A stretch of DNA of 64,000 bases, taken from sequence record NC_105512.1; one strand, written 5' to 3'. The notes under the pieces were generated by a model. It searched no databases. It was given only the letters and a program-made list of their open reading frames with translations, and was not told the origin of the DNA. The translations under genes were made by a program, and so were the position numbers. This DNA is from Escherichia phage JLBYU43. How positions within the stretch are numbered: the first letter of the stretch is position 1; each line of letters starts with the position of its first letter. This document shows, in pieces, positions 25,737-56,012 of this stretch.

Positions 25737-26255
25737 TTATCTACTCTTTTCTTTTATAATATTAGATATAGTAGGTTGGCTAACACCAAACATAGCAGCT
25801 AAAGCCGATTGTCCAAATTCTTTGCTTCTAGGTTGATAATGTGTGCGTATCCAATATACATCTGCATCTGATAACTTACACCTTCCGTGCTGCTCTCCTT
25901 TAGCTCTCTTTTCAGGGCTATTTAATCCAGTATTGTACGCATGTTCCATATTTTCTTCTGCCGTCACCCACTCTAGGTTACTTTCCTCGTTGTTATACTT
26001 ATTGCCATCTAGGTGGTTAACAAAAGGTTTGTTATCTGGGTTAGACACATAATGCTCTGCAACTAGCCTATGTATCCTATACTTTCTACACTTACCTGTC
26101 TCATAGTAAAGATTTACTATTAAGTAACCTTGTCTATTCACTTGAGGTTTAAGAATTTTACCAGATAAGTAACTCAGAACATTTCCTTTATTACTTATCT
26201 GATATTTACCCTCAAAACCTGTTATATCTTTCCAGGTTTCCACTAGTATCCTCAA
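25737..26255 (-). CDS. HNH homing endonuclease
   Basis: NUMOD4-like N-terminus, HNH core (HRLVAEHY...NHLDGNK), C-terminal HTH. Confidence 0.7.
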   Translation of the reverse strand: MRILVETWKDITGFEGKYQISNKGNVLSYLSGKILKPQVNRQGYLIVNLYYETGKCRKYRIHRLVAEHYVSNPDNKPFVNHLDGNKYNNEESNLEWVTAEENMEHAYNTGLNSPEKRAKGEQHGRCKLSDADVYWIRTHYQPRSKEFGQSALAAMFGVSQPTISNIIKEKSR

Positions 26256-26599: not shown

Positions 26600-26720
26600 A
26601 TTACCTCCATTAAGTCTTTTAAATTAACCTAATGTGGATGAATTTTATTATACATATATTATGTACCTTTATACAGAAAAACCCCAGACTACTTATTCAA
26701 TAGCTGGGGTTTGTTATTAA

Positions 26721-27035
26721 TTACAGATCGGGGCGTTCATCTTCGAAACAGCCTGAGCTGATTCCTTCTCCGAATCCTACAAAGCCGTCAAATTCATCGT
26801 TTGAGATGCCCATAATCATTGCTTCCATTTTCCTGATCTCCGAGATTTTCATACCTGCTTTACTATTCTTATAGTATTTGCGAGGATTCCCACACATCCA
26901 ACAAGAACAGATGCAAGGAGTGGTAGTAATAATGCCTAACCGCTTAGGACTTTCTTCATGTGGGAAGACTGTCCAATACTTTTTGCGATTGTTTTTCACA
27001 CGTTGCCGGTGATGGCGTCTTAATGCTCGATCCAC
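26721..27035 (-). CDS. hypothetical Cys-containing protein
   Basis: 104-aa ORF. Confidence 0.45.
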   Translation of the reverse strand: MDRALRRHHRQRVKNNRKKYWTVFPHEESPKRLGIITTTPCICSCWMCGNPRKYYKNSKAGMKISEIRKMEAMIMGISNDEFDGFVGFGEGISSGCFEDERPDL

Positions 27036-27116
27036 ACATTTCTCCTAAAACTTGGGAGATAAATGGAGTTTGCTCGACTACCTTGCGTAGTTGGGAGAAA
27101 TCGTATCCAAATCCCA

Positions 27117-27485
27117 TTATATCGCCTGAGTAAATGTACGACTAATAACGTCGTTCTGTTGTTCACGCGTCAATGCGTTAAATCGAACAGCATAGCCAGA
27201 GACACGGATGGTCAACTGAGGATATTTTTCAGGATGTTTCTGTGCATCCAAAAGCTGATCACGGCTTAACACATTGACATTTAGGTGCTGACCACACTCG
27301 ACTTGAGGAACCACTTCTACATCTACAATGCGGAAGGCCTCAGGGTCAAAATGAGGTGTGATACCCTCTAGATCTTCAACTAGAACCTTTTGTTTAAGTT
27401 CACCATCTTTAGAATATAGCTGAATGATCTGGTTATCATGAACAAGGTTAATTACGCCAGACTTAAGACTTTGATATGCTTTCAT
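27117..27485 (-). CDS. autonomous glycyl radical cofactor (GrcA/YfiD-like)
   Basis: 122 aa; C-terminus [27 protein letters not shown] closely matches my recollection of E. coli GrcA (glycyl-radical RVSGYAV). Confidence 0.7.
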
Positions 27486-27668
27486 TAGATCTCCCTGATG
27501 TTAGAATTTGGCTCAGCTTTTTGTTAACCCAGAAGCAAGATAAAAACTGGGAGGCAGGCTGTTTATTAAGTGAATACCCGATAATCGCTCGTAGTCCGGC
27601 TTGTGGATTGATAGTCCCATTCAGTTTAATAAACACAGAGATCTGGCACAAAGGCCTGATCTTATCTT

Positions 27669-27744
27669 TGGTAGTTAGTAGTGGAGTTGAACCACTGTAG
27701 TCGCTCCGTATGAAGGAGGTGCATAACCACTCTGCCAACTAACT
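27669..27744 (-). tRNA. tRNA with anticodon CAU (Met or Ile2)
   Basis: 7-bp acceptor stem, T-arm AGTGG-TTCAACT-CCACT, encoded CCA, loop TTCATAC. Confidence 0.55.
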
Positions 27745-27750
27745 ATAATT

Positions 27751-27825
27751 TGGTACCCAATCTAGGTTACGATCCTAGGTCTGAGAGTTATCGGCTCTCT
27801 GTTCTACCATTGAACTAATCGGGCT
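27751..27825 (-). tRNA. tRNA-Ile (GAU)
   Basis: perfect D-arm and anticodon stem, encoded CCA; unusual T-loop ATCGTAA. Confidence 0.5.
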
Positions 27826-28390
27826 TTTTAATACTTTTGGGATCTTTTCCTGTTAAGGCTTTATATCTTTTTCTTAAGCCATTATCAGAATAACCAAGTT
27901 CTTTAGCTGCTCTGACCCAGGAATAGTTAGATACCCAATATTCAATTTGTTCAGCAGATACACTATTATCTTTTACTTTTGACTCGCTATAATGTTTAAG
28001 ACAATAAGTAGACTTACCCGCTATTCTTATTCCACAGACTTTGCAAAAACTTTGTTTGGGCGGAGATATTCCCCTATCAAAACAAGTTTTCTCATAATGA
28101 TCCAGTTTAGACCTCACTATCAGGTTATCTAAATCATTATTAGATATATCTGTATCATCGTGATCTACTTCTAAATCAGAGGTTAATGAGGGTAGATCTT
28201 TATATACTCTCGCTAATGCTCTGCTTAGTAGTATATTTTTAGTTCCATTTTCGACGCCGAAATATTTATACCCAGTAGTATTAGTACGTATACTAAGTAA
28301 TTTATTACTTATTTTGGAATATACTCTACCCTCTCTAGAAATTAAATAATCTGGATACTCTGGTATTTCCTTAAATTCTGTTAAGTCCAT
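27815..28390 (-). CDS. HNH homing endonuclease
   Basis: NUMOD4-like N-terminus and HNH motif (EVDHDD...N). Confidence 0.7.
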   Translation of the reverse strand: MDLTEFKEIPEYPDYLISREGRVYSKISNKLLSIRTNTTGYKYFGVENGTKNILLSRALARVYKDLPSLTSDLEVDHDDTDISNNDLDNLIVRSKLDHYEKTCFDRGISPPKQSFCKVCGIRIAGKSTYCLKHYSESKVKDNSVSAEQIEYWVSNYSWVRAAKELGYSDNGLRKRYKALTGKDPKSIKKPD

Positions 28391-28683
28391 TACATCATCT
28401 CGTCTAGGTAAGAAGTATACTGGTATTTAGCTTCACCAGTTTTAGCTACTTCGACTTCTGTTCTAGGTACTTTTCGTACCAGACCATGAATCATCTTATA
28501 GTTAAGAGACTTAGATGGTTCGTGATCTTTTGGAAAGACTTGTTTAACCGTTACTACTTTGAAGCCTTCACGAGGTGTTAATACAACAACTTGATCACCT
28601 TCTTTAATTTTCCAGGACTCAGGAAATTCATAAGTGTAGCGTTGACCACCAGTTTGGAACACGACAGAAAGATAACGTTTCAT
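28390..28683 (-). CDS. hypothetical protein
   Basis: 97-aa ORF behind an early promoter. Confidence 0.5.
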   Translation of the reverse strand: MKRYLSVVFQTGGQRYTYEFPESWKIKEGDQVVVLTPREGFKVVTVKQVFPKDHEPSKSLNYKMIHGLVRKVPRTEVEVAKTGEAKYQYTSYLDEMM

Positions 28684-28757
28684 TTGGTTTCCCTCTCATT
28701 AATTTATATAAATATTATAACAAGAAATAAGAGAGAAGGCAAATGAATTTTTAAATT

Positions 28758-28832
28758 TGGTGCTCCCACCAGGAGTCGAACCTAGTTCAGATGCTTACAA
28801 GGCAACTGCATCGCCAGCAATGCTTTAGGAGC
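28758..28832 (-). tRNA. tRNA-Thr (UGU)
   Basis: acceptor and T-arm fold, CCA encoded, loop CTTGTAA. Confidence 0.6.
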
Positions 28833-28999
28833 AATAAACCCGTCATTTCAACGGGATTTCTTTTTCAAATACAGGAGACTTATCAGACATTACTGTCATC
28901 GCCAACTGCTGAAGAAACTCGAAGGATAGTGCTAGGCGTTCGTCACCAAGCTCAATCTCTACACGTTTCTTTTGTTTGTCAACCTTTAGTTTCAGGTTA

Positions 29000-30362: not shown

Positions 30363-30456
30363 TGGCGGAAAAGATGGGAGTTGAACCCATAAGGCGGTAT
30401 TGCTACCACTCAACCGATTTCCAATCGGGTTTAGTCACCAGTCTATTTGCTTTTCC
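30363..30456 (-). tRNA. tRNA-Ser (GGA), long variable arm
   Basis: perfect acceptor GGAAAAG/CTTTTCC, CCA encoded, loop TTGGAAA. Confidence 0.5.
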
Positions 30457-31027
30457 GTTGTTCTGTTAATACTTTTGGGCTTAATCCGGTTAGTTTAGTA
30501 TATCGTCTACGTAAAGTGGACTCTGATACTTCTAGATCTTTAGCTGCCTTAACCCACCCCATTAATAATACCTTTTCAGTTATGTCTTCTAAGGACAATT
30601 CTGGTTTTATTAACTTTCCTGTAGGTTTTGGCTTACAATTTGTACATGTTACTGATCTCTGAAGCATTAGATTTCCACATAAGGGGCAAGGTACTCTACT
30701 ATCAGACCATCCATTATCTTTATTAGTTTTCTTCTGATGTTCTATTTTTGATAAAACTTGAAGATTATCTTTAGATAGATTCAGCCTATCTCTATCCTTG
30801 TGATCTACTTCTAATTCAGGGTCAAATAGATTATATAAGTCCCCAAATACATGAGAAATAATTCGGTGTATAAGTACCGAAGTTTGCTTACCATTTATCT
30901 GTAATTTTACAGCAGGGTATCCATCAACTATATATCTTGATAAAATTTTATTAGTAAATGTAGATAACACATCCCCTGTTTCATTTACTAAATACCCTGG
31001 TGCATCTTTTATTGGTACAAACTGCAT
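30443..31027 (-). CDS. HNH homing endonuclease
   Basis: NUMOD4-like N-terminus, HNH motif EVDHKDRDRLN, Cys-rich zinc ribbon. Confidence 0.7.
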   Translation of the reverse strand: MQFVPIKDAPGYLVNETGDVLSTFTNKILSRYIVDGYPAVKLQINGKQTSVLIHRIISHVFGDLYNLFDPELEVDHKDRDRLNLSKDNLQVLSKIEHQKKTNKDNGWSDSRVPCPLCGNLMLQRSVTCTNCKPKPTGKLIKPELSLEDITEKVLLMGWVKAAKDLEVSESTLRRRYTKLTGLSPKVLTEQRKSK

Positions 31028-51404: not shown

Positions 51405-51694
51405 TCCTATAGTGTACTTCGCTTCTAACAGAGGATCAACAAAAAGATCTTGTTTATCAACTTACAAATATATTATACCAATATATGTGGGAGAAAGCAA
51501 CTACAATTTTAAATAAGCATATGATATTGCATTTAAATAAAAAATTTGCTTGCTTATAGAGGCAGAAATATGATACTAGATAATCATTTATTTATACGCA
51601 AAATATTACAGTATTAGATGACGAAAGAAAATTTTAATTGACATAGTGGATAATGTTTAGTATAATAGGTGTAAAAATTCTGTGGAGAAGGGGA

Positions 51695-52558
51695 ATGCCG
51701 AAAAAATTAACTCAAGAAGAAGTAGATAAATGCCTAGCCGAACGTGGTTTTACTATGGTGGATAAGCCTTACCAAAATTCTAGGTATAGGCATACGTATC
51801 AGTGTGAATATGGTCATCAATGGACATCTAAATTTGATGCTATTAGGAATGGAAAGACCAATTGTCCTACTTGTTCTATTAATAGCCGTAAACTAGATAT
51901 CGATAAAATTAATACTGTATTACAGGGTAGGGGTATTACATTGTTGGAGGGCTATAAAAATAGTGCCGATATAAATACTAAATTTAGGTGTGTTTGTGGT
52001 CATGAGTGGGCTACTACACTTAATAGTATAATTAATAGAGGTAGTGGCTGCCCCTCTTGTGCTATTAATAAACAAAAACTTAGTATTAATACTATAAACG
52101 ATCGTCTTACTGCTAGGAATATTAGAATAGTAGGTGAATATAGTAATGCGAATATTAAGACCACCTTTCTCTGTGGTGCAGGGCATCAGTGGGAAGCTAC
52201 TCCAGGATCCGTGTTAGGAGGAAATGGTTGTCCTTACTGTAAGTATAGGGATTTAGAAAATACTAAGGTATATATTATGCATAGCCCTTCACATGGTGTT
52301 AAAATAGGAAGGTCTAACAATCCAGAGCGCAGACTTTTACATATTAAATCTAGTAGTCACCTTACTGATCTGGAAGTAATTAAAGTATTTGAAATTGGAG
52401 AATATAGTGATGCTGTTCAAATCGAAAAATTAGCTCATAATTACTTTAAAGAACAGAATTGCCAATACAAAGATTTTGATGGTGCTACGGAATTCTTCAA
52501 TATTGAGCCAGAAGTAGCTATAAAATTTATCGAGGAAATAATCAATGACAGAAAATGA
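51695..52558 (+). CDS. T5orf172-domain protein with three zinc-ribbon repeats
   Basis: three ~47-aa repeats CxxGHxW...GxGCPxC followed by a T5orf172/GIY-YIG-like C-terminus; start at ATG 51695 with a GGAGAAGGGG RBS. Confidence 0.55.
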   Translation: MPKKLTQEEVDKCLAERGFTMVDKPYQNSRYRHTYQCEYGHQWTSKFDAIRNGKTNCPTCSINSRKLDIDKINTVLQGRGITLLEGYKNSADINTKFRCVCGHEWATTLNSIINRGSGCPSCAINKQKLSINTINDRLTARNIRIVGEYSNANIKTTFLCGAGHQWEATPGSVLGGNGCPYCKYRDLENTKVYIMHSPSHGVKIGRSNNPERRLLHIKSSSHLTDLEVIKVFEIGEYSDAVQIEKLAHNYFKEQNCQYKDFDGATEFFNIEPEVAIKFIEEIINDRK

Positions 52559-54371
52559 ACTAATTGAAAATTGCAAAGGTTTACTTACTCTAACTGCTGA
52601 CAAAGACTTGCAGCATAATAATGCTAATAAACCTAGCGAGATGTTTCATACACAGAGGGACTTACTAGCTGGAGAAATCAACAAGTATTTAGTAGCACAA
52701 GAATTACCTAAACATTTATTAGACGCCCATAATCTAGGTAAAATACACATCCATGATATGGATTATAGAGCACAGGGGTACACTAACTGTTGTTTAGTAG
52801 ACCTAGGTGGTATGTTGAAAAATGGTACTAAAATTGGTAATGCGAATATTGAAACTCCTAAATCTATAACTACTGCATGTGCGATTACTGCTCAGATTAT
52901 TGCTCAGGTATCAGGCGCTCAGTATGGGGGTACTTCTATTGATCGTATTGATGAAGTTCTAGCTCCGTATGTTAGGAAGTCCTACAATAAACATCTGGGG
53001 CGTGGCCTACGTTGGCTTAAGGATGAGAGAAAAGCTGCTGTATATGCTACTGAACTTACTGAAAAAGAATGTTATGATGCATTCCAAGCTCTAGAGTATG
53101 AAACTAATTCATTATTTAACTCTAATGGGCAGACTCCTTTTATTACGCTGGGCTTTGGATTAGGGCAGGAGTGGGAGGAAAGGATGATTCAGAAAGCCAT
53201 CCTCCAAAATCGTATTAAAGGTTTAGGTGCTGCTGAGTCAACTCCTATCTTCCCTAAACTAGTATTCTCAGTTAAAGAAGGGTTAAATAAAAATCCAGGT
53301 GATCCTAACTATGATATAAAACAACTAGCACTTGAGTGTTCTGCTACTCGTATGTACCCAGACTATTTAAGTTACGAGAAAGTTGTAGCTGTTACTGGTG
53401 ATTTTAAAGCCCCTATGGGTTGTCGTAGTTTTTTATCTGCCATCCCCTCTGGAGAAATTGCAGGACGTAATAATTTAGGTGTTGTGTCTATCAATCTACC
53501 TATGGTTGCTGCTGAGGCAGATGGAGTTTTTGAAGATTTCTGGGATATTCTAGACAAATATGTGGATGAGGCTTTTGAAGCACATGACTTCTTCTTAAAC
53601 AGACTGAAGAAAGTTAAGGCTAAACAAGCCCCTATTCTTTATATGCACGGTGGTTTTGGTGTACGTTTAGAAGGAGAAGAATATGTATGGCCTATTTTTG
53701 AGGGTAGATCTTCTGTATCTCTTGGGTATATTGGGGTCTATGAGATGTGCCAAATAATGTTTAGTTTACCACAGACTCATAGGGACTGTATTGAATTTAC
53801 AGAGGAAGTTCTCACTCACCTAAAAAATCGTTGCGAAGTTAAAGCTACTGAAACTAATCTTGGGTTTAGCTTGTATGCTACTCCTAGTGAGTCTCTGTGT
53901 AATCGCTTTAATAAACTACTGGAGCGTAGATTCCCAGAGTATTCTTGGTTAGCAGATAAAGGTTATCTTACTAATAGCCATCATTTGGACGTGAGGGAGA
54001 AGGTAGCTCCAGATACTAAATTTGAGTATGAGGCTCATTTTACTAAAATAGCTAATGGTGGTAATATATCATTTGTGGAACTACCTCAAATGAAAAAGTT
54101 CCACAAAGCTCTTGAGTATGTGGTGGATAAGGGGCTAGAATGTAGTCATTATATTGGTGTTAATATACCAATTGATGAGTGCTTCAATTGTGGGTATATG
54201 GGTGAATCTATTGCTTCTGAGCGTGGGTTTGTATGTCCAAGTTGTGGGTCTGAAGAAATAGAGGTTACACGTAGGGTTTGCGGGTACCTGGGATCCCCTG
54301 GCAGTAGGCCTTTCAATTCTGGGAAACAAAAAGAAGTTCTTGGTAGAGTAAAACACTTAAATTTCAAGTAA
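52545..54371 (+). CDS. nrdD: anaerobic ribonucleoside-triphosphate reductase (class III)
   Basis: 608 aa; C-terminal zinc ribbon CxxC...CPxCG and glycyl-radical motif RRVCGYLGS. Confidence 0.85.
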   Translation: MTENELIENCKGLLTLTADKDLQHNNANKPSEMFHTQRDLLAGEINKYLVAQELPKHLLDAHNLGKIHIHDMDYRAQGYTNCCLVDLGGMLKNGTKIGNANIETPKSITTACAITAQIIAQVSGAQYGGTSIDRIDEVLAPYVRKSYNKHLGRGLRWLKDERKAAVYATELTEKECYDAFQALEYETNSLFNSNGQTPFITLGFGLGQEWEERMIQKAILQNRIKGLGAAESTPIFPKLVFSVKEGLNKNPGDPNYDIKQLALECSATRMYPDYLSYEKVVAVTGDFKAPMGCRSFLSAIPSGEIAGRNNLGVVSINLPMVAAEADGVFEDFWDILDKYVDEAFEAHDFFLNRLKKVKAKQAPILYMHGGFGVRLEGEEYVWPIFEGRSSVSLGYIGVYEMCQIMFSLPQTHRDCIEFTEEVLTHLKNRCEVKATETNLGFSLYATPSESLCNRFNKLLERRFPEYSWLADKGYLTNSHHLDVREKVAPDTKFEYEAHFTKIANGGNISFVELPQMKKFHKALEYVVDKGLECSHYIGVNIPIDECFNCGYMGESIASERGFVCPSCGSEEIEVTRRVCGYLGSPGSRPFNSGKQKEVLGRVKHLNFK

Positions 54372-55029: not shown

Positions 55030-55243
55030 AAATGTTAGTCTTATTGACCTGAGTAAACTCAATGTAGAGTTTCAGGGGGTTTTAATGAAGCACTGGGAAA
55101 CTGGCTATAAGGATGGTGTTGAATCCTGTGCTACTATGCTAGAATTTATTGCTAATACCTTAGTGGAGAAAGGCAATAAAGAATTAGCTGAGCTGTTAGA
55201 CAGTATTGGGCAAAACTTCAGAGAGCAGGTGAAAAATGCGTAG
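54998..55243 (+). CDS. hypothetical protein
   Basis: 81-aa ORF. Confidence 0.45.
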   Translation: MAFSSQKLPSENVSLIDLSKLNVEFQGVLMKHWETGYKDGVESCATMLEFIANTLVEKGNKELAELLDSIGQNFREQVKNA

Positions 55244-56012
55244 ACTAATCATTGTTAGTGGTGCTGGTTTAAGTGTTGATAGTGGTATCCGTGCATTCCG
55301 TACAGATACTGCTAGTGGTAAAGCAATGTGGGACGAGTACGATCTAGAAGAGGTGTGTGATATTCATGCTTTTCGTGGCCAGTTCTACTGGAAAACCCAC
55401 GAGTTCTACAACAAGCGTCGTCAGGAGTTGCGGACTGTTGAACCTAACATTGCGCACCTTCGTATTGGGGAATGGTTCCAGCGGTATCCAGAAGCGGTAC
55501 TAAACATTACTACTAACGTAGATGACTTGCTGGAAAGAGCTGGTGTGCCGAAAAGTGAGGTTCTCCACGTTCATGGCTATTTACCGGAAGTTCGTATTAA
55601 GGAATTGCCAGACCGAAAAGAGTACATCCTAGATGTGGGCTATACTGCTATTGATCCTGATGAATTTTATTGGGCAAAGCCTAACGTTGTATTCTTTGGT
55701 GAAGCAGCCCCCGAATATGCTCTGATGCATGCCACTTTTGATAGTCTTACAGCTAACGATATGGTTATCGTGGTTGGGTGTAGTAACCAAGTTATCAACT
55801 TCAACTGGGAACTTTTTCCTGCACTAGCTCGTGGTACTAAGATGATGGTTGTTAACCCAACTATTAACTACTTGGAACAATCCCTGTACGAAGAGCGTGG
55901 TGTTACTGTATGGCGTGCTGGGGCTGCCGAAGTTTTCGGTAACAAACACTTTATTGGCCAGGTAGAAGCTTTTATGGAAGGAACTATTTATGCCCCAGAA
56001 AAGCATGTGTGA
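55236..56012 (+). CDS. SIR2-family (sirtuin-like) NAD-binding protein
   Basis: sirtuin motifs GAGLSVDSGIRAFR, VVFFGE and VVGCS; no CxxC zinc-ribbon insert visible. Confidence 0.65.
   Translation: MRRLIIVSGAGLSVDSGIRAFRTDTASGKAMWDEYDLEEVCDIHAFRGQFYWKTHEFYNKRRQELRTVEPNIAHLRIGEWFQRYPEAVLNITTNVDDLLERAGVPKSEVLHVHGYLPEVRIKELPDRKEYILDVGYTAIDPDEFYWAKPNVVFFGEAAPEYALMHATFDSLTANDMVIVVGCSNQVINFNWELFPALARGTKMMVVNPTINYLEQSLYEERGVTVWRAGAAEVFGNKHFIGQVEAFMEGTIYAPEKHV

What the first reader, a model, noticed from the sequence alone, without database searches (positions are those of the whole stretch)
27117..27485. Phage-encoded GrcA/YfiD-like autonomous glycyl radical cofactor
The C-terminal 60 residues match the glycyl-radical domain of GrcA as I recall it, including RVSGYAV. 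The phage also encodes its own class III reductase NrdD, but no activase (NrdG-type CxxxCxxC protein) is visible in this window. The protein could repair oxygen-damaged host PFL or act in trans with a glycyl-radical enzyme during anaerobic infection.
Basis: partly seen in the sequence, partly recalled or inferred. Interest (0 to 1): 0.55.

Follow-up and report, generated by a model that had tools for sequence, protein, structure and literature searches.

The report
Phage copy of GrcA spare-part protein
This T5-like phage carries a small, well-conserved gene for a stand-alone "spare" glycyl-radical domain that most likely repairs the host's oxygen-damaged pyruvate formate-lyase; the same kind of protein was shown to work in phage T4 in 2001, so the finding is real but ordinary.

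Summary
Window 27117..27485 (minus strand) is a 122-aa ORF with a PFL-type glycyl-radical domain in its C-terminal 60 residues (Pfam PF01228, E=1.9e-18; RVSGYAV at residues 94-100). The window is the left 64 kb of a T5-like phage. The exact protein is GenBank UGO55734.1 of Escherichia phage JLBYU43.

The gene is the orthologue of T5.056 (92% identical), which the T5 record annotates as a glycine-radical-domain protein. It shares PHROG 1209 with T4 vs.6/Y06I, which was shown biochemically to be activated by PFL activase and to rescue oxygen-cleaved PFL. Homologues occur in 1,580 phage records, and dN/dS against T5 is 0.07.

NrdD is at 52545..54371. No CX3CX2C activase is encoded in the window or in the complete genome of the close relative KKP_3831. 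The protein must therefore use host PflA, and the phage NrdD must use host NrdG.

Three additions:
- The tail after the radical glycine is closest to TdcE (92%).
- This phage has a private G64C change at a near-invariant glycine.
- In six of nine other phage contexts sampled, the gene lies beside ribonucleotide reductase genes. This suggests it keeps PFL producing formate, the reductant used by NrdD.

Verdict: already known, low interest.

The parts
27117..27485 (-). CDS for the 122-aa GrcA/Y06I-like autonomous glycyl-radical protein (stop codon included). It is the orthologue of T5.056.
   Evidence: ORF list. Pfam, NCBIfam, PHROG and PDB matches. 92% identical to T5.056. The exact sequence is UGO55734.1. 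dN/dS against T5 is 0.07.
27120..27302 (-). Glycyl-radical domain, residues 62-122. It corresponds to PflB residues ~699-759.
   Evidence: Pfam PF01228 matches residues 62-103. PDB alignments to GrcA 53-126 and PflB 698-758. The model places Gly97 between two short strands (92-95 and 98-101), flanked by two helices, and superposes on 2PFL at 0.8 A rmsd.
27186..27206 (-). RVSGYAV fingerprint. The Gly97 codon (27195..27197) is the predicted radical site, equivalent to PflB G734 and GrcA G102.
   Evidence: Read directly from the sequence. The motif is invariant in alignments of 29 and 34 homologues.
27303..27485 (-). N-terminal region, residues 1-61. It is predicted to be beta-rich and is under purifying selection. 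By analogy with YfiD it is probably needed for activation by PflA.
   Evidence: dN/dS is 0.09 for residues 1-60. Gln5 is at least 90% conserved across phage and bacterial GrcA. The model shows strands 2-36 and 51-55 at pLDDT ~74. The role of the YfiD N-terminus is from PMC8683613.
27294..27296 (-). Cys64 codon (TGT). This is a private G64C substitution in the otherwise near-invariant EGGQH motif.
   Evidence: Gly64 is at least 90% conserved. T5 and the closest relatives P0001-P0006 all have Gly. The best match in the phage collection is 121/122.
27491..27496 (-). Shine-Dalgarno sequence AGGGAG, 5 nt upstream of the ATG.
   Evidence: Read from the sequence. The ribosome-binding role is inferred.
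28714..28742 (-). Sigma-70-like promoter (TTGCCT, 17 nt, TG, TATAAT; 10 of 12 matches) at the position of T5 early promoter P11. It probably drives the unit ORF, HNH endonuclease, tRNA-Ile, tRNA-Met, grcA-like gene.
   Evidence: Promoter scan. The T5 annotation places P11 upstream of T5.058, two tRNAs and T5.056. This is inferred; the number of promoter-like sites in the region does not exceed chance.
26956..27117 (-). 53-aa ORF of unknown function (phrog_31464). Its ATG overlaps the grcA-like stop codon (TAATG), so the two may be translationally coupled.
   Evidence: The same adjacency is annotated in KKP_3831. No function can be assigned.
52545..54371 (+). Phage class III ribonucleotide reductase NrdD, T4-type. 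It is the inferred beneficiary of PFL-derived formate. No nrdG accompanies it.
   Evidence: Pfam NRDD, E=2e-157. 593 bits to T4 NrdD 1H78. Formate is the reductant of the class III enzymes characterised so far (PMC4493059). The link to the grcA-like gene is inferred from synteny in other phages.

Best explanation

Proposed mechanism:
1. The protein is made early in infection, from the tRNA-rich early region.
2. The host's radical-SAM activase PflA installs a radical on Gly97, because the phage has no activase of its own.
3. The activated 14-kDa protein docks onto host pyruvate formate-lyase (PflB, and probably the paralogue TdcE) whose own C-terminal radical domain has been cleaved by oxygen or is otherwise inactive.
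4. [quoted passage not shown]

Likely benefit to the phage: fermentative energy and acetyl-CoA supply are maintained under microaerobic or fluctuating oxygen. Formate, the reductant needed by the phage's own class III ribonucleotide reductase NrdD, is also maintained.

Shown here: the domain identity, family membership, conservation, purifying selection and absence of a phage activase. Inferred by homology: PflA activation and PFL rescue. Inferred from synteny and known biochemistry: the formate-NrdD rationale.
For: Domain and fold:
- Pfam PF01228, and GrcA and PFL structures by sequence.
- The model superposes on PFL at 0.8 A over 43 residues.
- RVSGYAV and 32-37 C-terminal columns are invariant across phage and bacterial GrcA.

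Family:
- Full-length match to phrog_1209 at E=4e-46. The T4 vs.6/Y06I CDS carries this same family label.
- 51% identity to T4 over 100% of the length.
- Y06I and YfiD are activated by PFL-AE and rescue oxygen-cleaved PFL (PMC8683613).
- GrcA G102 transfers its radical to PflB C419 and rescues PflB G734A in vivo (PMC12338860).

The gene is functional:
- dN/dS is 0.07 against T5, in both halves of the protein.
- It is found in 1,580 phage records, about 430 of them T5-like at 80% identity or more.
- It has a good Shine-Dalgarno sequence.

Dependence on host activases:
- No CX3CX2C ORF in the window.
- In the rest of the KKP_3831 genome, every DNA-level CX3CX2C hit is out of the annotated frame or contains a stop codon.
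- Positive controls PflA and PX29 NrdG both carry the motif.
- No T5-like genome appeared in the sampled rows of the NrdG and PflA tblastn searches.

Link to nucleotide reduction:
- The gene order is nrdD, grcA-like, nrdG in a 104-kb phage contig.
- It is nrdD, grcA-like, DUF4326, nrdG in jumbo Klebsiella phage RCIP0023.
- It is nrdD, nrdG, vs.6, nrdC, nrdH in Aeromonas phage PX29.
- nrdD and nrdG lie within 4 kb of the gene in a 330-kb contig.
- nrdA, nrdB, grcA-like are adjacent in Vibrio phage D479 and in a 73-kb contig.
- Bacterial grcA is not next to RNR genes.
- Formate is the reductant of the characterised class III RNRs, and the window NrdD is T4-type.
Against: - There is no biochemistry for any T5-like member.
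- The protein scores 115 bits on NCBIfam GrcA (TIGR04365), below the 170-bit cut-off. The validated T4 Y06I also fails, at 153 bits.
- The N-terminal half, which in YfiD matters for activation by PFL-AE, is only 25% identical to E. coli GrcA and 32% to T4 Y06I.
- This phage carries G64C at a near-invariant glycine, with unknown effect.
- In the T5-like and T4 genomes themselves the gene is about 20-25 kb from nrdD, so the RNR synteny is absent in the lineage under study.
- Two of the six RNR-adjacent cases involve aerobic class Ia genes. They may reflect only general clustering of nucleotide-metabolism genes.
Confidence: 0.8

Rival explanations
1. The protein is tuned mainly to TdcE (2-ketobutyrate/pyruvate formate-lyase) rather than PflB. 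It would supply the radical tail of that paralogue.
For: The segment from the radical Gly to the C-terminus (residues 97-122) is 92% identical to E. coli TdcE, against 81% for PflB and 73% for GrcA or T4 Y06I. The whole domain is 82% identical to TdcE against 76-77% for the others. The best nucleotide hits in E. coli genomes are tdcE and pflB, both at ~75%.
Against: The differences amount to 2-7 residues, and all catalytic-motif positions are shared by the three host proteins. PflB is the abundant fermentative enzyme. The two targets are not mutually exclusive.
Confidence: 0.1
2. The protein is a decoy. It soaks up host PflA or occupies PFL without restoring activity, shutting down or redirecting host fermentation as part of host takeover.
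For: It is encoded in the early region, among host-takeover functions. The N-terminal half is divergent. The G64C change is present in this phage.
Against: The radical glycine and every residue that is invariant in functional GrcA and PFL domains are retained under strong purifying selection. The T4 family member restores PFL activity in vitro. An inhibitor would not need a catalytically competent tail.
Confidence: 0.05
3. The protein works directly with the phage class III reductase. It would act as a spare radical domain for oxygen-cleaved NrdD, or as a radical relay activated by NrdG.
For: In several phages the gene sits inside nrdD-nrdG operons. Some GenBank records even call it a 'ribonucleotide reductase subunit'.
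Against: The domain is PFL-type throughout, and it is 98.9% identical at the DNA level to host grcA in T4. The window NrdD C-terminus reads RRVCGYLGSPG, preceded by Cys-rich CxxC motifs, and is unlike this protein. There is no Pfam NRDD match. T5-likes have no nrdG at all.
Confidence: 0.03
4. It is a non-functional remnant of a captured 3' end of host pflB or tdcE.
For: It corresponds to only the last ~120 codons of a 760-codon gene. Many records mislabel it 'pyruvate formate-lyase'.
Against: dN/dS is 0.07 with dS 0.64 against T5. The ORF is intact with its own start and Shine-Dalgarno sequence. It is conserved at full length in 1,428 phage records across several families.
Confidence: 0.02

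Closest known systems
Bacteriophage T4 Y06I (gene vs.6), an autonomous glycyl radical cofactor
   Same: Both are stand-alone phage proteins of ~120 aa in PHROG 1209. They align over their full length at 51% identity and share the MKAYQ N-terminus and the invariant GQHLNVNV...[16 protein letters not shown] core. Y06I is the experimentally validated phage member.
   Different: The 3' half of the T4 gene is 98.9% identical in DNA to E. coli grcA. The T5-like gene is only ~75% identical to any host gene, and its tail is TdcE-like. N-terminal halves are 32% identical. T4 encodes its own NrdG; T5-like phages encode no activase.
Phage T5 gene T5.056 (YP_006884.1, 'putative acetyltransferase-related protein', IPR001150)
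   Same: It is the orthologue: 92% identical, the same length, and in the same position just downstream of tRNA-Met and tRNA-Ile in the early tRNA region.
   Different: There are ten substitutions, including the window's private G64C. The window has a 183-nt spacer to the tRNA against 13 nt in T5, and an HNH endonuclease inserted upstream.
E. coli GrcA (YfiD), PDB 6OWR
   Same: Same size and architecture. The C-terminal 62 residues are 77% identical. Gln5 and the radical-domain motifs are conserved.
   Different: The N-terminal 60 residues are only 25% identical. The protein scores 115 bits against the 170-bit cut-off on the NCBIfam GrcA equivalog, where E. coli GrcA scores 234. It is encoded by a virus and has no chromosomal ung-grcA context.
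C-terminal glycyl-radical domain of PflB and TdcE (formate C-acetyltransferases)
   Same: 76% (PflB) and 82% (TdcE) identity over the last 62 residues. The predicted fold superposes on PFL at 0.8 A.
   Different: It lacks the ~640-residue catalytic barrel with Cys418/Cys419. It scores 81.5 bits against the 994-bit cut-off on TIGR01255. It is therefore not a formate-lyase, despite frequent GenBank labels.

Membership tests
Glycyl-radical domain (Pfam PF01228 Gly_radical) | Profile score above the gathering threshold | tested here: met
   67.3 bits against a cut-off of 22.2, E=1.9e-18, residues 62-103.
Glycyl-radical domain (Pfam PF01228 Gly_radical) | RVxG[FWY] fingerprint with the radical glycine between the two strands of a beta-hairpin, flanked by helices | tested here: met
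   RVSGYAV at residues 94-100. The model has strands 92-95 and 98-101 around Gly97 and helices 75-83 and 107-117. It superposes on PFL 2PFL at 0.8 A over 43 residues.
[quoted passage not shown] | Stand-alone protein of ~14 kDa: a short N-terminal region plus a PFL-type radical domain, with no catalytic barrel | tested here: met
   The ORF is 122 aa. The only Pfam domain is Gly_radical.
[quoted passage not shown] | Score above the NCBIfam equivalog cut-off (170 bits) | tested here: not met
   115 bits. The cut-off also excludes validated T4 Y06I (153.3), a jumbo-phage member (135.8) and another T5-like member (121.6). E. coli GrcA passes at 233.9. So the protein is not a member of the bacterial equivalog as NCBI defines it. 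The phage clade as a whole sits just outside.
[quoted passage not shown] | N-terminal region homologous to that of GrcA | tested here: inconclusive
   Gln5 is at least 90% conserved and the N-termini can be aligned across phage and bacterial members. Identity to E. coli GrcA over residues 1-60 is only 25%, and HMM alignments start at about residue 50.
[quoted passage not shown] | Glycyl radical installed by PFL-activating enzyme; the activated protein restores activity to oxygen-cleaved PFL | not testable with these tools
   Known for YfiD and T4 Y06I only (PMC8683613). Testing requires EPR and an enzyme assay.
Phage Y06I/Vs.6 family (PHROG 1209) | Full-length profile match to the family that contains T4 vs.6 | tested here: met
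   E=4.1e-46, residues 1-122 against profile positions 1-121 of 121. The T4 vs.6 CDS is labelled phrog 1209 in its record. The tblastn match to T4 covers 100% of the length at 51% identity.
Pyruvate formate-lyase / formate C-acetyltransferase (the name many GenBank records give this protein) | A ~760-aa enzyme with the ten-stranded barrel and catalytic Cys418/Cys419; NCBIfam TIGR01255 cut-off of 994 bits | tested here: not met
   81.5 bits, matching only profile positions 683-743. The protein is 122 aa.
Ribonucleotide reductase subunit (the name given in some records, e.g. SE19/SE20) | NRDD or radical-SAM NrdG domain | tested here: not met
   There is no PF13597 or radical-SAM match, and Gly_radical is the only Pfam hit at E up to 0.01. 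The sequence has no CX3CX2C motif.

The most novel reading that the evidence does not exclude
Phage GrcA-like proteins are a functional part of the phage anaerobic dNTP-supply module. By keeping host pyruvate formate-lyase active despite oxygen damage, they secure formate, the obligatory reductant of the phage-encoded class III ribonucleotide reductase. This would explain why the gene sits inside or beside nrdD/nrdG (or nrdAB) operons in at least six unrelated phage lineages. In T5-like phages the whole module (NrdD plus the GrcA-like protein) runs on two borrowed host activases, NrdG and PflA. I found no statement of this link in the searchable open-access library. Subscription papers, such as Wagner 2001 and the T4 genome review, could not be read.
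Probability: 0.4. Interest if true: 0.45.

Novelty: already known. Interest (0 to 1): 0.2.

Why it matters
For this window the value is mainly correct annotation. The gene should be named 'autonomous glycyl radical cofactor (GrcA/Y06I-like)'. It is not a pyruvate formate-lyase, 2-ketobutyrate formate-lyase, acetyltransferase or ribonucleotide reductase subunit, all of which appear in GenBank for this one family.

More broadly, the data show three things:
- The spare-part strategy is widespread in enterobacterial and Vibrio phages, with 1,580 records.
- T5-like phages depend on host radical-SAM activases for two glycyl-radical proteins.
- The gene is repeatedly embedded in ribonucleotide reductase operons.

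If the formate-NrdD link is real, it would be a tidy example of a phage repairing a host enzyme in order to feed its own enzyme. It would also predict oxygen-dependent host-range or fitness effects relevant to phage use in the gut.

Tried and rejected
- Activase search. I looked for a hidden NrdG- or PflA-type protein by scanning all six frames of the window for CX3CX2C. I also ran a degenerate DNA pattern over the remainder of the closest complete genome. The only in-frame hit is the 104-aa ORF 26721..27035 (motif CICSCWMC). It matches PHROGs of unknown function and is too short to be a radical-SAM activase. I rejected it.
- tblastn of PX29 NrdG and E. coli PflA against all phages gave no T5-like genome in the sampled rows. 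The tool lists at most 60 rows, so this is supportive rather than exhaustive.
- A local tblastn against KKP_3831 failed because most fetched loci were not copied to the script machine. The DNA-pattern search replaced it.
- An Rfam scan of 26600..28900 found only the three tRNAs and nothing in the 183-nt spacer upstream of the gene.
- The promoter scan was not above chance. Only the P11-equivalent site is worth noting.
- Literature searches for a T5-like formate-lyase gene or a GrcA-NrdD phage link found nothing relevant. The T4 genome review (PMC150520) is not held.
- The pseudogene/remnant and NrdD-spare-part readings were considered and rejected on the selection and sequence evidence (see rival explanations).

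Full report
**What is there.** Window 27117..27485 is a single minus-strand ORF with an ATG start, 122 codons and a stop. An AGGGAG Shine-Dalgarno sequence lies 5 nt upstream (sequence).
- The protein matches Pfam Gly_radical (PF01228) at 67.3 bits against a gathering score of 22.2, E=1.9e-18.
- It matches the solved structures of E. coli GrcA/YfiD (6OWR, E=2.9e-28) and pyruvate formate-lyase (1H16, E=2.4e-25).
- RVSGYAV is residues 94-100, so the predicted radical glycine is Gly97 (27195..27197).
- An AlphaFold model built on 34 homologues has modest confidence (mean pLDDT 69). It places Gly97 between two short strands (92-95 and 98-101), flanked by two helices.
- Foldseek returns the YfiD NMR structure first, then PFL at 0.8 A rmsd over 43 residues.

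**Where it is.** The window is the left 64 kb of a T5-like phage (Demerecviridae, Epseptimavirus).
- The 3-kb neighbourhood is 94% identical to Salmonella phage KKP_3831 and similar to about 450 T5-like records.
- The window starts with the dmp, A1 and A2 genes, as KKP_3831 does.
- The exact protein sequence is GenBank UGO55734.1, 'putative pyruvate formate-lyase' of Escherichia phage JLBYU43.
- The gene lies at the edge of the early tRNA cluster of 23 tRNA genes, just downstream of tRNA-Ile and tRNA-Met.
- In T5 the orthologue is T5.056. It is 92% identical and annotated 'putative acetyltransferase-related protein, IPR001150'. It occupies the same position downstream of the annotated early promoter P11.
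- A matching promoter-like site (TTGCCT, 17 nt, TATAAT) lies at 28742..28714 in the window. Promoter-like sites in this region are no more frequent than chance, so the assignment is inferred from T5.

**How it relates to known proteins.**
- The protein matches phrog_1209 over its full length (E=4e-46).
- T4 gene vs.6, which encodes Y06I, carries the same PHROG label and aligns over 100% of the length at 51% identity.
- Y06I and E. coli YfiD are the two experimentally validated 'spare part' proteins. PFL-activating enzyme installs a glycyl radical on them, and they restore activity to oxygen-cleaved PFL (Wagner et al. 2001, as summarised in PMC8683613).
- In vivo work shows that GrcA G102 passes its radical to PflB C419 and rescues PflB G734A (PMC12338860).
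- The disordered YfiD N-terminus is needed for activation, not for catalysis (PMC8683613 abstract).

A phage-encoded GrcA is therefore an established concept, and the T5 orthologue has long been annotated as a glycine-radical-domain protein.

**Membership caveat.** On the NCBIfam GrcA equivalog (TIGR04365, cut-off 170 bits) the window protein scores 115 and fails. Validated T4 Y06I also fails at 153.3, as do a jumbo-phage member (135.8) and another T5-like member (121.6). E. coli GrcA scores 233.9. The phage clade is thus a sister group that works like GrcA, not a member of the bacterial equivalog as NCBI defines it. The labels 'pyruvate formate-lyase' and 'ribonucleotide reductase subunit' used in many records are wrong. 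The protein scores 81.5 bits against a 994-bit cut-off on the PFL model and has no NRDD or radical-SAM domain.

**Is it functional?**
- Against T5, dS is 0.64 and dN is 0.045, giving dN/dS of 0.07. The N-terminal half gives 0.09 and the radical domain 0.04.
- Homologues occur in 1,580 phage records. About 430 are T5-like at 80% identity or more, about 1,000 are T4-like at ~51%, and the rest include jumbo Klebsiella, Salmonella and Yersinia phages and Vibrio phages.
- In alignments of 29 and 34 members, 32-37 columns are invariant, nearly all of them in the radical domain. Gln5 in the N-terminus is at least 90% conserved in phage and bacterial members alike.

**Activase.**
- NrdD is at 52545..54371. 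It matches Pfam NRDD at E=2e-157 and scores 593 bits to T4 NrdD.
- No ORF of 50 aa or more in the window contains CX3CX2C, apart from an unrelated 104-aa ORF.
- In the rest of the KKP_3831 genome, the ten DNA-level matches to TGY-N9-TGY-N6-TGY are all out of the annotated reading frame or contain stop codons.
- The motif is present in the positive controls, PflA and PX29 NrdG.

T5-like phages therefore appear to rely on host PflA for this protein and on host NrdG for their NrdD.

**Details specific to this gene.**
- The tail from Gly97 to the C-terminus is 92% identical to E. coli TdcE, 81% to PflB and 73% to GrcA or Y06I. The whole domain is 82%, 76% and 77% identical respectively.
- By contrast, the 3' half of the T4 gene is 98.9% identical in DNA to E. 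coli grcA. The T5-like gene is only ~75% identical to pflB or tdcE.
- This phage carries G64C (ECGQH in place of EGGQH) at a glycine conserved in at least 90% of members. T5 and all close relatives have Gly. The effect is unknown.

**Why a phage would carry it.** I sampled nine contexts of phage homologues outside the T5-like group.
- Six lie beside ribonucleotide reductase genes:
  - nrdD, grcA-like, nrdG in a 104-kb contig
  - nrdD, grcA-like, DUF4326, nrdG in Klebsiella jumbo phage RCIP0023
  - nrdD, nrdG, vs.6, nrdC, nrdH in Aeromonas phage PX29
  - nrdD, then nrdG, then the grcA-like gene, within 4 kb in a 330-kb contig
  - nrdA, nrdB, grcA-like in Vibrio phage D479
  - divergent nrdAB in a 73-kb contig
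- The three T4-type contexts place the gene in or near the thymidine-kinase (tk) region, away from RNR genes; two of them show the full tk-vs-regB arrangement.
- Bacterial grcA is next to ung or eamB, not RNR genes.

Formate, the product of PFL, is the reductant of the class III reductases characterised so far, including the E. coli and T4 type (PMC4493059, citing Mulliez 1995). The inference is that the spare part keeps PFL supplying formate, as well as acetyl-CoA and ATP, for phage DNA synthesis when oxygen intrudes. This remains an inference. In T5-likes the gene is 25 kb from nrdD, and two of the six cases involve aerobic class Ia genes. I found no statement of this link in the searchable library.

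**Verdict.** The feature is a functional, conserved and already-known kind of phage gene, and this exact sequence is already deposited. Interest is low. The RNR synteny and the double dependence on host activases are the only points that might repay further work.

Noticed in passing
L002:6179-6363 (T4 vs.6) against E. coli grcA (L005:401-585): The 3' half of T4 vs.6/Y06I is 98.9% identical in DNA to E. coli grcA in all 5,426 complete E. coli genomes. The 5' half has no nucleotide match. The T4 gene looks like a mosaic produced by recent recombination with the host gene.
   Followed up: partly
window 27294..27296 (-): A private G64C substitution (ECGQH in place of EGGQH) at a glycine conserved in at least 90% of GrcA-like proteins. 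T5 and the closest relatives all have Gly. The exact sequence occurs only in Escherichia phage JLBYU43.
   Followed up: partly
L014:3185-6163; L019:4185-6830; L007:1359-4947; L017:1-5366; L012:1656-5372; L016:1411-5378: In six unrelated phage contexts the GrcA-like gene is inside or next to ribonucleotide reductase operons (nrdD/nrdG in four, nrdAB in two). Bacterial grcA and the T4- and T5-type phages do not show this.
   Followed up: partly
window 52545..54371 (+): The window NrdD is 100% identical to that of Salmonella phage 2-3. It is only 60-71% identical to the NrdD of most T5-like phages (49 records at 95% or more, 477 at 60-80%). Two divergent nrdD alleles circulate in otherwise similar genomes.
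   Followed up: no
window 51653..52558 (+): A 301-aa ORF overlaps the nrdD start by 14 nt. It carries DUF4379 zinc-finger, T5orf172/MUG113 and CapR-homology domains. It is probably a homing-endonuclease-like insertion next to nrdD, and it is not an activase.
   Followed up: no
window 26721..27117 (-): Two overlapping ORFs lie downstream of the gene, and both have strong PHROG support. One is a 53-aa ORF (phrog_31464) whose ATG overlaps the grcA-like stop codon (TAATG). The other is a 104-aa Cys-rich ORF (CICSCWMC) that matches phrog_4499 plus phrog_6828, as if two small genes had fused.
   Followed up: partly
window 27486..27668: A 183-nt spacer separates tRNA-Met from the start codon. It has no Rfam match and no convincing promoter. 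In T5 the same spacer is 13 nt, and in phage oselot it is ~600 nt and contains an extra small ORF.
   Followed up: partly
window 25737..26255, 27815..28390, 30443..31027 (-): Several HNH homing endonuclease genes are interspersed among the tRNA genes. The one at 27815..28390 overlaps the 3' end of tRNA-Ile and is absent from the equivalent position in T5.
   Followed up: no
window 55236..56012 (+): A SIR2-family (NAD-dependent deacetylase-like) protein is encoded about 0.9 kb downstream of nrdD. It is also annotated in Salmonella phage 2-3.
   Followed up: no
GenBank records of T5-like phages (hits H1-H36, P0001-P0033): One protein family is annotated under at least seven names: pyruvate formate-lyase, 2-ketobutyrate formate-lyase, formate acetyltransferase, acetyltransferase-related protein, ribonucleotide reductase subunit, glycyl radical cofactor and hypothetical protein. 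Some records split it into a 65-67-aa fragment.
   Followed up: yes
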